Positions 6,001-9,000 of a stretch of DNA of 64,000 bases are shown here, piece by piece (position 1 is the stretch's first letter; every line of letters begins with the position of its first letter). This DNA comes from Candidatus Woesearchaeota archaeon CG1_02_57_44 (GTDB lineage: Archaea; Nanobdellota; Nanobdellia; Woesearchaeales; CG1-02-57-44), in assembly GCA_001871415.1 (NCBI GenBank), contig MNWW01000058.1, positions 62,001 to 126,000 of the forward strand, read 5' to 3'. The position numbers are program-made.

Positions 6001-9000
6001 GCCTGTAAAACCAACCATCGTATATAAAACTATCGGTGGTCGGTTTTCTCGACGACAAACCTCTTTTTGGGAAGTCTGTCGGCCCCCCTCAGAGCAGTCA
6101 AACTCTGAAGGACTGCACAGGATTGACGCTGGCTATTTTTAATGGTTTCGCAAATGCCCTGGCAGCGCATGGTTCCTGTTATGCCGGATGGGGTCAAGGT
6201 CGTTGTTGGCAGGGGTTAGGGGGCACTCTTAACTATTGGGTGGTAAAATGGTGGGGGTGGGGGGGCATTTATAAACCCTTATATACTCTATTTTGGATGT
6301 TGGGATTTTGTTTATAAACTGGCTTGTTTCTCGGCCGAGAATAAGCGGTTCTTGGTTGCTGTTTTTATTGGCTCTGACGGCGGGTCTCTGGGTTGATTAC
6401 CCCAACCATTATGGCGTTTCAAGTAGAACATCTTTTGCAGCGGCTTCGCCGCCAGTCTTGTATTGACGATTGTCGTCCATAAGCGTGCATACCTGGGGCT
6501 CATCGATTCTTTTTGGAAAATCCGTAGACATGCCAAGGGCATGTTGAGGCCCTGAACTTCGTTCATGAGGATCGATCCAAAACAAGGTCAATGCACGCTG
6601 TCGCAGGGTTGCCCGGTCTTGCAGAACAAGGTTTTCATTGATTTAAAAAGCATGCGGGGAGCAGGGTTCGAACCTGCGTAGACGCTAGGCCAACAGGTCC
6701 TAAGCCTGTCCCGTTTGACCACTCCGGCATCCCCGCGCAGGAGCGCGGGAAAGCGCCGCGCTTTTAAAAACCACCGGGTCGCTGCTCAGGTCCCGAACAC
6801 GACCACTGAACCCTCAGTGGACTGGTTGCCTGTGTCAATGGCGCGTACAGTATAATTATACAGGCCGCTTGTGAACCTGAACACGGACTGCTCCCATTCG
6901 CAGGTCGGCTGGTCAAAGCAATCTTTCCTGGCAGTCACCTGCTTTCCGCCATTGGTGTACAGGCGCAGCTCAGCTATGCCATCAGGGTCCGTCGCTGTCG
7001 TGTTGATGATGCTCTGCCTGGCAGCCTGGTAGATGGCATTGACCGTCACTATGCCACTGCCCTCTGCTGGTGGCGTTGTCTGGGCAGGAGTTGTCGGCTC
7101 TGGCTCGGTCGGCGCTGGAGCAGCAGCGACGCAGGCTCCGTCTTCGCATACCTCTTCACAGGCCTGCTCTGTCTGCACCGGCGCGCTGTACTGGCAGGTC
7201 CATTCCAGCACATGCGTATCGTCCACACAACTGTCGGTCCGCAGGAACTGCTCGCCGTCCTGCTCTCCACGCACCGTTCCCTGCACCAGGATGTCCACAC
7301 CGTCGCTGTCAGCGCAGGTGTTCGTTGGCAGCGGCGTCACGGTCGTACCGCTATCATCAGGCGCCGCAGCCGGCGGGTGCGCTGGTGCGGCGCAGGCAGT
7401 GAGCACAATAAGGAATATGGCAAGGTAGTAGGGTTTCATGGGTAACGGCCTCCGAAAAAATCAGGCATCTTCACCTATATAATACTAACGTCGCTGACCA
7501 GCCCAAGACCTCAAATGCCGAATGTTTCGCAGACGCGCACATACGCTTCCTGGCTTCGCTCACGGTCATACGCGCCTGCCACTGAAATGACTTTTTGCCT
7601 ATGTGGTTGGGGAATGTGGCTCGTCAGGGCTGGACTGAGCAGGTACTGGCAGAACTGGGTCACATTGGCTGGTCTTTCTACTTTTCGCGCGCGCTCGAAA
7701 TCCACGAGAACAGGCACGGGGCAATTATCTCTGCTATTCTCTATGATAATATGCTTTGACGGATGATTCATCTCCTGTTTCTGGATGCCTGCCTTGTCTA
7801 GCACCAGGCATTGCTCCATGACCCTTTTTATCAGTCGCTTCTTTTCAGCTTCTGTCGTTGTCGTCAGCCAGTCTTCAAACAGGGGGCCGGATACCAGCTG
7901 CATGATGACATATCCTTCCCCGTACACAAGCAGCTTTGGTCCTATGCACAGACGGTTGACCTCTGCAAGCATCATCGCTTCGTGTCCGGTTGTATCCTTG
8001 CAGTCAAGACGGGGCACCTTCGCCACTGCATGCATACCCTTCCAGGTTCCCTGATAGACGATGCCTCTTCGTCCTTTTGCCAAAACCTTGGCATCCTCCA
8101 GCCCTGCCTGCGTCGCATACTGCCGCATGAGGGTCACGGGGTCGTGCCAAAGCCGGATGCACCGTAGCTCCTCAAAAAACACCTTCTTTCTCGCGACGAC
8201 CTGCGCGAGCAGGCCATGCTTTCGGGCAATCGCGTGGACGCTGCACCTTGTCTGAGACGAACAGATAACGAGCGCGCTGCCCCCCGGCGAGGTCGCTTTC
8301 AGGTAGGGGTGTAGCTGCTCGATGAATCTTGCCAGCAGCTCGCAGCCGGACGGCCCACCGTCGAGCGCCTGGTCAGGATATTGCTCATCCGCCGGCAGGT
8401 ATGGCGCGTTGAAGATGACTAGGTCGAATCTTGCCTCGTGCCTGTTGAGCAACGCGCGCAGCTCCTTTGGGAGTCGTCGCATGCCTTCCACGTCAAGGAA
8501 GGAAAACAAGTCGCTCTCGATGAACCAGGCATTGTCCGGGGCGTTCCTGCTCGCATGCGCTATTGCCTCGGGATTGGTGTCCACGCCTATCACCGCATCA
8601 GCGGTCTTTGTCGCGGCGTGCGCAAGGTATCCTGAACCCGTGCCCATGTCCAGCACAAGACCTTTGCAATACCGGCGCATGGCCTGCTCGAGCAGGAAGG
8701 TGTCCTCTGCTGGCTGGTAGACGCTCATGCCATCCTGCTGAACAGGCAGTTCAGCAGCGCGGCGCTTGCCGAGTAGGTCGCGTGGGCGCCAGAGAACGAG
8801 AGGTTCTGCACCAGTGTGGCTCCTGCCAATGGCAGATCAGAGAGGTAGTAGATCATGCCCGCTTCGCTTCGGCCATGCTTTCGCAGGGCCGCGAGGAATG
8901 GTCCTGCTTCCATCTCCACAAAGGAGATGTCCTTGAGCGCGCTCGCCTCCAGGTAGAGCCGGTTCATGATGATGGTGCCCTTGCTGGAGATGCCGGTCAC

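What a model noticed while it worked through the whole genome (the two positions that open the first line are those of the whole stretch)
7511..8728. Release-factor methyltransferase HemK2/Mtq2 fused to an atypical protein kinase in a lineage without Trm112
g00878 joins the aRF1 glutamine methyltransferase Mtq2 (residues 1-195, NAPY motif) to a Bud32/RIO-like kinase domain with an unusual catalytic loop (K.EM.hP.KHII) and DFE. The fusion is the common state in Woesearchaeales, the two parts are neighbours in most others, and no Trm112 activator is found.
Evidence so far: 78 of 81 genomes match; about 45 have one open frame over both domains and about 17 more have the two genes side by side or within 3 kb. 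Conservation of both halves in 10 loci. C-terminal part: weak Bud32 hit, E 4e-4. PF03966 (Trm112) in this and four complete genomes hits only the TFB zinc ribbon or noise, while the control rings in M. jannaschii, Haloferax, Sulfolobus and Methanosarcina. In relatives the gene often sits next to an Ogt-like gene and TFB.
(Added by a program. Inside this text positions count along the whole contig: contig position 62,001 is position 1 of the stretch shown here. "Call 12" and the like, gene names such as g00115 and contig names such as C1 are that model's own, and its searches are not shown. The text may have been shortened before it was handed on; [...] marks where a part breaks off. The agent that wrote the report below was given it as the finding of a first reader that could run no searches.)

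Follow-up and report, generated by a model that had tools for sequence, protein, structure and literature searches.

The report
Release-factor methylase fused to tRNA kinase
In a widespread group of tiny groundwater archaea, the enzyme that methylates the translation release factor is usually joined to an enzyme of the family that puts a stabilising phosphate on tRNA, not to a protein kinase, and the supposedly missing helper protein Trm112 is present in about a quarter of these genomes.

Summary
The fusion is real: one 405-aa frame (7511-8728, minus strand), with Mtq2 over the TIGR00537 cut-off. It is fused in at least 81 of 151 sampled genomes of the order.

Two claims fail. (1) The C-terminal half is not Bud32/RIO-like. 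It belongs to ArkI/Ark1, the tRNA U47 2'-kinase family (Z 21.0 and 19.9, against at most 15.7 for RIO1/Bud32), and the genome has a separate Bud32. (2) The lineage is not Trm112-free. Stand-alone Trm112 occurs in 40 of 151 genomes, 24 of 81 fused and 14 of 53 unfused (p 0.84). This genome (82% complete) has none.

ArkI is in 115 of 115 high-quality genomes, while archaeosine TgtA (0 of 81) and the eraser KptA (0 of 101) were not found. Best reading: two independent translation-machinery modifiers joined from overlapping neighbours. Activity is untested, and this copy has Asp at TkArkI Lys201.

The scan reported the ArkI reading on four other genomes; their notes as shown do not mention Trm112, archaeosine or KptA.

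The parts
7511..8728 (-). Mtq2-ArkI fusion gene, 405 aa (P0001)
   Evidence: AlphaFold2 model pLDDT 94.2, pTM 0.81; junction covered without differences in other runs
8147..8728 (-). Mtq2/HemK2 class I SAM methyltransferase domain (aa 1-194); Y4, E8, D9, F11, D50, D73/L74, N107, E186 match the Mtq2 active-site residues
   Evidence: TIGR00537 112.7 bits over cut-off 87; Foldseek best N6AMT1/KMT9, also E. cuniculi Mtq2 3q87; residue table PMC3152332; conservation
8399..8410 (-). NAPY (NPPY-type) glutamine-binding motif, aa 107-110
   Evidence: N, P109 and Y invariant in 111 of 111
8432..8491 (-). About 20-aa helical insertion in the beta3-beta4 loop, the Trm112-contact loop; similar insertions occur in genomes with and without Trm112
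7514..8140 (-). ArkI/Ark1-family RNA kinase domain (aa 197-405)
   Evidence: profile vs PDB: Ark1 E 3e-26, TkArkI 2e-12, next 6e-5; VIA Z 21.0/19.9 vs RIO1 15.7 and Bud32 14.9
7751..7780 (-). Catalytic loop K317-H326, Ark1 type; K317 and E319 stand at TkArkI H130 and Q132, K325 at K137
7694..7702 (-). DFE metal-binding motif (D343 = TkArkI D149)
7562..7570 (-). YDR in place of the ArkI YKR tRNA-binding motif; the only one of 97 domains with an acidic residue at the K201 position
8725..10326 (-). Upstream DUF6909 gene; its stop overlaps the fusion's start (ATGA); not among the recurrent neighbours in relatives

Best explanation
A two-enzyme polypeptide. The N-terminal Mtq2 uses SAM to N5-methylate the GGQ glutamine of aRF1, presumably while aRF1 is bound to aEF1A-GTP as in H. 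volcanii, and does so without Trm112 in this genome. The C-terminal ArkI uses ATP to phosphorylate the 2'-OH of U47 in class I tRNAs with a five-base variable loop, stabilising the tRNA core. The two halves work independently. The fusion arose from translationally coupled neighbours in a conserved cluster (Mtq2 > ArkI > Ogt-like, convergent TFB, then Trm112 where kept) and has been made or undone repeatedly. SHOWN here: family membership of both halves, conserved active sites, substrates encoded in the genome, and the distribution. INFERRED from characterised orthologues: both activities. INFERRED and untested: Up47 is kept as a core tRNA stabiliser in a lineage where archaeosine TgtA and the eraser KptA were not found.
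For: Kinase family: the only strong PDB matches are RNA kinases, by sequence and structure (8yv4 Z 21.0, rmsd 1.6 A, 28% identity; 7vnx Z 19.9). 10 of the 14 TkArkI residues tested by mutation (PMC9095486) are identical in the query (mapped through); 2 of the other 4 match Ark1 and are invariant in 111 homologues. The domain is strongly basic across the family (median net +20). Substrates: 12 of 17 intron-less tRNA calls with a 5-base V-loop have U47 (10 distinct), and aRF1 has GGQ. Mtq2 residues essential in yeast (Y15, E19, D20, D77, N122) are conserved. Independence: 14 of 19 genomes of other orders in the class have ArkI, none fused, with no Mtq2 within 2.5 kb. Split pairs often overlap by a few bases. 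The same cluster also gives ArkI-Ogt and Mtq2-ArkI-Ogt fusions. Fused and split forms are intermingled on the ArkI tree (17 changes, shuffled mean 29). ArkI is in 115 of 115 high-quality genomes. TgtA 0 of 81, with all 4 archaeal controls positive; KptA 0 of 101.
Against: No activity was measured. TkArkI H130 and Q132, whose Ala mutants lose activity, are K and E here, and I could not see whether the KxE-type Ark1 was assayed (only its PDB title; no paper found). This copy has Asp at K201 (K201A is severely impaired in TkArkI), net charge +5 to +6 against a median of +20, and Met at R95. Mtq2 positions D26/E29 and R207, needed in yeast, are not conserved. The junction length is nearly constant (103 of 111) and the full model has pTM 0.81, which could reflect a selected interface. 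The tree is poorly resolved (7 of 94 branches starred) and does not exclude a single origin. U47 is common in tRNAs generally (own knowledge), so its presence is only permissive.
Confidence: 0.66

Rival explanations
1. Same families, but in this particular genome the kinase half is attenuated or inactive and only Mtq2 works.
For: YDR with Asp at K201, unique among 97 domains; net charge near the bottom of the family; long terminal branch, 1.24.
Against: All ATP/metal residues are intact (K218, G219, K237, E250, K325, D343, N355, T357, Y387). The K201 position is variable in the family (K in 60 of 111; S or A common). R389 is kept. Four other domains have lower charge, and the genome is 57% GC.
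Confidence: 0.14
2. The halves are mechanistically coupled, or the KxE-type kinase has another target: a different RNA site, the aRF1-aEF1A complex, or a WbdD-like phosphorylate-then-methylate relay on one substrate.
For: Fusion or adjacency is kept across most of the order; the junction is short and constant; the catalytic loop differs from TkArkI; WbdD has the same domain order.
Against: The genes are unlinked in other orders of the class and in some genomes of this order (G023, G055, G081, G119). The methyltransferase has the NPPY amide-N active site of Mtq2. WbdD aligns only at rmsd about 13 A and 15% identity. Fusions to Ogt show the cluster fuses easily.
Confidence: 0.1
3. One reading: a Bud32/RIO-like protein kinase that regulates translation termination.
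For: NF011463 Bud32 E 3.8e-4; RIO1 Pfam on a minority of members of look-alike Atlas clusters; RIO1 Z 15.7.
Against: 19.9 bits against a cut-off of 188. A true Bud32 lies on C57 (176.7 bits) and has no significant BLAST similarity to the query (E 0.96). ArkI/Ark1 lead by 4-5 Z units, with 22-28% identity against 10-17% for RIO and Bud32/PRPK. The catalytic loop has no HxD aspartate.
Confidence: 0.05
4. The kinase domain replaces Trm112 as the activator of Mtq2.
For: This genome lacks Trm112; 57 of 81 fused genomes have no stand-alone Trm112.
Against: 24 of 81 fused against 14 of 53 unfused genomes keep Trm112 (p 0.84; p 1.0 if 9 unclassified are counted as fused; kin are not independent). No position of the beta2-beta3-beta4 face differs in hydrophobicity between 30 Trm112-positive and 59 Trm112-negative Mtq2s, apart from one gappy column. 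Thermococcales and Methanobacteriales lack Trm112, and H. volcanii trm112 deletion still methylates aRF1.
Confidence: 0.05

Closest known systems
Geoglobus acetivorans RNA kinase Ark1 (PDB 8yv4, 8yv5 with ATP)
   Same: Best match by profile (E 3e-26) and structure (Z 21.0, rmsd 1.6 A over 167); same KxEM.HP catalytic loop, DFE, N.TQF, C-terminal YKK helix.
   Different: Stand-alone, 174 aa, no N-terminal helix matching query 197-207, Arg at K137. I saw only the PDB title and alignment, no assay.
Thermococcus kodakarensis ArkI (TK2051; COG2112/AQ578; PDB 7vnx), tRNA U47 2'-kinase
   Same: Z 19.9 over 192 residues; 10 of 14 mutated residues identical; DFE and basic C-lobe.
   Different: HGQ loop against KQE here; YKR against YDR; stand-alone; has an eraser, KptA, which was not found in 101 genomes here (S. 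tokodaii also lacks KptA).
Archaeal/eukaryotic Mtq2 (HemK2/N6AMT1), aRF1/eRF1 Gln methyltransferase
   Same: TIGR00537 over cut-off; YxPxED, GxG and NPPY-type motifs; best fold matches.
   Different: C-terminal kinase fused; no Trm112 in this genome; yeast D26/E29 and R207 not conserved; beta3-beta4 insertion.
WbdD (O-antigen terminating methyltransferase-kinase)
   Same: Domain order methyltransferase then kinase.
   Different: rmsd about 13 A, 15% identity. Substrate and chemistry differ (recalled), and there is no family relation beyond the folds.
Bud32/PRPK and RIO kinases
   Same: Kinase fold (Z 14.9-15.7).
   Different: 10-17% identity; the genome has its own Bud32.

Membership tests
ArkI/Ark1 (COG2112, AQ578) | Closest solved relatives by sequence and fold are ArkI proteins | tested here: met
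ArkI/Ark1 (COG2112, AQ578) | DFE in place of DFG; no HRD | tested here: met
   D343-F-E invariant or nearly so; definition from PMC9095486
ArkI/Ark1 (COG2112, AQ578) | ATP-site and subdomain IX residues K32, G33, K51, E65, K137, D149, N160, T162 | tested here: met
   K218, G219, K237, E250, K325, D343, N355, T357
ArkI/Ark1 (COG2112, AQ578) | Catalytic-loop triplet (HGQ in TkArkI) | tested here: inconclusive
   KQE here: differs from TkArkI, equals the Ark1 type KEE; K and E invariant in 111
ArkI/Ark1 (COG2112, AQ578) | C-terminal YKR motif and basic tRNA-binding surface | tested here: inconclusive
   Family mostly YK+, median net +20; this copy YDR, +5 to +6
ArkI/Ark1 (COG2112, AQ578) | ATP-dependent 2'-phosphorylation of tRNA U47 | not testable with these tools
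   Substrate tRNAs are present; no assay
Mtq2/HemK2 | TIGR00537 score over cut-off | tested here: met
   112.7 vs 87 bits
Mtq2/HemK2 | Y4, E8, D9, aromatic 11, SAM-binding D51 and D69/L70, NPPY | tested here: met
   (query NAPY; Ala at that position in 19 of 111)
Mtq2/HemK2 | Substrate-face residues D26/E29 and R207 (yeast) | tested here: inconclusive
   Q15, R18, K181; variable in the family; their state in other archaeal Mtq2 was not examined
Mtq2/HemK2 | Methylation of the aRF1 GGQ | not testable with these tools
   aRF1 with GGQ present
Bud32 (KEOPS kinase) | TIGR03724 or PRK14879 over cut-off; the genome's Bud32 orthologue | tested here: not met
   19.9 vs 188 bits; TIGR03724 matches only C57; BLAST E 0.96
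RIO kinases | PF01163 match; closest fold | tested here: not met
   No PF01163 hit at E 0.1 for the full protein; RIO1 ranks 4-5 Z below ArkI

The most novel reading that the evidence does not exclude
The fusion is a selected, rigid two-headed enzyme that couples tRNA 2'-phosphorylation to release-factor methylation, through allostery or shared docking on aEF1A-GTP cargoes (tRNA and its mimic aRF1). It works in a lineage that has swapped archaeosine for permanent, eraser-free Up47 as its tRNA-core stabiliser.
Probability: 0.12. Interest if true: 0.8.

Novelty: new variant of a known kind. Interest (0 to 1): 0.45.

Why it matters
Up47 was described mainly as a thermotolerance mark, with a few mesophile cases (PMC9095486, PMC10159004). 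Its writer is in 115 of 115 high-quality genomes of a reduced-genome order, almost always as one copy, and close relatives of this organism come from groundwater. TgtA and KptA were not found. This suggests a heat-independent core role (folding, nuclease resistance) and gives a direct test, since Up47 and archaeosine loss are synthetic in T. kodakarensis. The source names listed for the fused proteins name only the methyltransferase, so the family's range is under-counted. The fusion itself is probably positional, and the Trm112 story that made the finding look strange does not hold.

Tried and rejected
Complex prediction of a natural split pair (Mtq2 A4 + ArkI A5): no verdict; used neither for nor against.

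No RNA holder listed for the locus; nothing on expression.

Trm112-face comparison of Mtq2 between Trm112-positive and -negative genomes: no difference.

A first fused/unfused table wrongly counted some in-frame neighbours (G031, G039, G059) as fused. It was corrected. In one search, 17 genomes were left out (4 without a match, 13 truncated or unclassified).

ArkI tree: the careful search did not finish; the quick tree cannot fix the number or direction of fusion events.

Growth-temperature proxy: discarded, because it includes spurious ORFs of a GC-rich genome.

Intron-bearing tRNAs were not parsed.

KptA controls ring in only 3 of 14 genomes, one of them archaeal, so a divergent eraser is not excluded.

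I could not obtain sequences of the other assayed ArkI proteins (N. viennensis, A. aeolicus, M. fervens), so whether an assayed enzyme has the KxE loop stays open.

Not found in print in searches (open-licence PMC and bioRxiv only). The main Supplementary Information of PMC9095486 (distribution figure) could not be read and may list DPANN homologues.

Full report
OBSERVATION. Window 7511-8728 (-) is one 405-aa frame, in G000, an 82%-complete genome. Named relatives are mostly labelled Woesearchaeota or Nanoarchaeota. Many loci carry a submitter title 'Methanosarcinales archaeon', which I did not resolve. Contigs from three other groundwater runs cover the domain junction with no letter differences. 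There are 260 full-length homologues at E <= 1e-3, and AlphaFold2 gives pLDDT 94.2 and pTM 0.81. The fusion is not an artefact.

N-TERMINAL HALF. It passes TIGR00537 HemK2/MTQ2 (112.7 against 87 bits), and its best folds are N6AMT1/KMT9, with E. cuniculi Mtq2 close behind. I compared it with the mutant table of PMC3152332 (passages). Y4, D9, D50, N107, P109, Y110 and E186 are invariant in 111 of 111 homologues, E8 in 108 and D73 in 103; the yeast D26/E29 and R207 positions vary. The genome's aRF1 has GGQ. In H. volcanii, Mtq2 methylates aRF1 bound to aEF1A-GTP, and in vivo needs Mtq2 but not Trm112 (PMC6144793, passages).

C-TERMINAL HALF. phmmer against the PDB gives 8yv4/8yv5 (E 5e-11) and TkArkI 7vnx (E 1.6e-5), then nothing under 0.5. 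A kinase-only profile gives 3e-26 and 2e-12, next 6e-5. 8yv4/8yv5 are titled 'G. acetivorans RNA kinase Ark1'. The kinase-only model aligns to Ark1 at Z 21.0 (rmsd 1.6 A), TkArkI 19.9, RIO1 15.7, PRPK 15.3 and yeast Bud32 14.9. The genome has a separate Bud32 over cut-off, with no significant BLAST similarity to the query.

ArkI phosphorylates the 2'-OH of U47 in class I tRNAs with five-base V-loops (PMC9095486, parts 2-3 of 11 and passages). I mapped its 14 mutated residues through, with a 7-residue tag offset inferred. Ten are identical in the query: K32, G33, K51, E65, K137, D149, N160, T162, Y200, R202. H130 and Q132 are K317 and E319, invariant in 111 homologues and the same as Ark1's KEEMNHP loop. 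R95 is Met and K201 is Asp.

Against activity in this copy: it alone of 97 domains has an acid at K201, and its net charge is +5 to +6 against a median of +20. I could not see an assay of a KxE-type enzyme. Substrates exist: 12 of 17 intron-less tRNA calls with five-base loops have U47, out of 45 ARAGORN calls.

DISTRIBUTION. The ArkI domain is in 146 of 151 sampled genomes of the order and 115 of 115 high-quality ones, nearly always once. At least 81 of 151 are fused (79 stop-free matches, plus 2 checked), and up to 90 with unclassified long frames. Three of the 81 are unpublished genomes (G131, G120, G111), which change no conclusion. Most split pairs are adjacent, and many overlap by a few bases. 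Among 19 genomes of other orders in the class, 14 have ArkI, none fused, and their 14 loci hold neither Mtq2 nor Ogt. The cluster in relatives runs Mtq2 > ArkI > Ogt-like, convergent TFB, then Trm112 where kept. ArkI-Ogt and triple fusions also occur (7 proteins or loci). On a weakly resolved tree, fused and split forms are mixed (17 changes against 29 shuffled; one origin not excluded). In this genome the fusion gene lies apart from Ogt and TFB, which are on C20.

TRM112. The claim of a Trm112-free lineage fails. PF03966 over 101 genomes finds strong full-length hits in short ORFs. Their sequences have the LACPxCK...CxxC..Y.I..GIP pattern, and all 5 tested hit NF038101 best, though under its cut-off. 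A lineage profile finds stand-alone Trm112 in 40 of 151 (13 weak or long-frame hits not counted): 24 of 81 fused, 14 of 53 unfused, p 0.84 (17 genomes left out; kin are not independent). It often lies 1.4-5 kb from the fusion, for example in G011, G060, G115, G022, G026 and G101. Mtq2's Trm112-binding face does not differ between the groups. This genome has none by four searches. Absence is known in Thermococcales and Methanobacteriales (PMC5372719, passages).

CONTEXT. KptA was not found in 101 genomes by two models (weak archaeal control). S. tokodaii has Up47 without KptA (peer-review file of PMC9095486, passages), so this is not unique. Archaeosine TgtA was not found in 81 genomes, while all 4 archaeal controls ring. 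The 3 TGTs tested are queuosine-type, in line with PMC8204110 (passages). Since arkI and queE deletions are synthetic in T. kodakarensis, I infer, untested, that Up47 may be the main core stabiliser here. Up47 in mesophiles is already reported (PMC10159004, part 1 of 2).

MECHANISM AND VERDICT. Most likely (0.66) two independent enzymes on one chain: aRF1 Gln methylation and tRNA U47 2'-phosphorylation, joined from coupled neighbours. Rivals: kinase weakened in this copy (0.14); coupled action or another target (0.10); protein kinase (0.05); Trm112 substitute (0.05). Both halves are members of known families. The pairing was not found in seven literature searches, with one unreadable supplement. 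Four earlier scan notes reached the ArkI reading on other genomes; I had reached it before looking, and they are not independent evidence. New variant of a known kind; interest 0.45.

Noticed in passing
L043:3935-4924, L161:123-1079, L140:2152-3054, L163:1000-1893, L050:3407-4921; P0175, P0229, P0245: ArkI fused to a small Ogt/MGMT domain (PF01035), and one Mtq2-ArkI-Ogt triple fusion; the PCHR motif is kept in 32 of 34 neighbouring Ogt-like proteins.
   Followed up: partly
L117-L128 and rows: 46-78-aa Trm112 genes next to and divergent from TFB in about a quarter of the order; 12 further genomes have only Trm112-like knuckles inside 285-368-aa frames, not examined.
   Followed up: partly
L209-L211; G000:C7:4459-5829: TGT in 56 of 81 genomes; the 3 tested are bacterial queuosine-type; no archaeosine TgtA in 81. 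The genome's own TGT matches in three separated pieces.
   Followed up: partly
L015:1501-2661 (G077): Fusion-like frame with a single TAG inside the methyltransferase, after the NPPY region; error, pseudogene or read-through not resolved.
   Followed up: no
window 8725-10326 (-): DUF6909 protein (weak PNP/UDP phosphorylase hit) overlapping the fusion's start, downstream of an SDR, an inositol monophosphatase and an enolase-like gene.
   Followed up: no
ESM Atlas structure row 5: A 69-member archaeal cluster (commonest Nitrososphaerota) joins an ArkI-like domain to HhH-GPD, another fusion with a DNA-repair domain.
   Followed up: no
L060:2393-2857; L076:2124-3899; L202:4836-5600: Conserved unannotated neighbours: a 155-aa protein in 25 loci, and 592-aa and 255-aa proteins beside stand-alone ArkI in the other orders.
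   Followed up: no
window 3553-5934, 6653-6736, 14141-14216, about 54004-54378: S-layer protein gene, tRNA-Leu(TAG) and tRNA-Lys(CTT, C47); a second HemK-like methyltransferase match.
   Followed up: no
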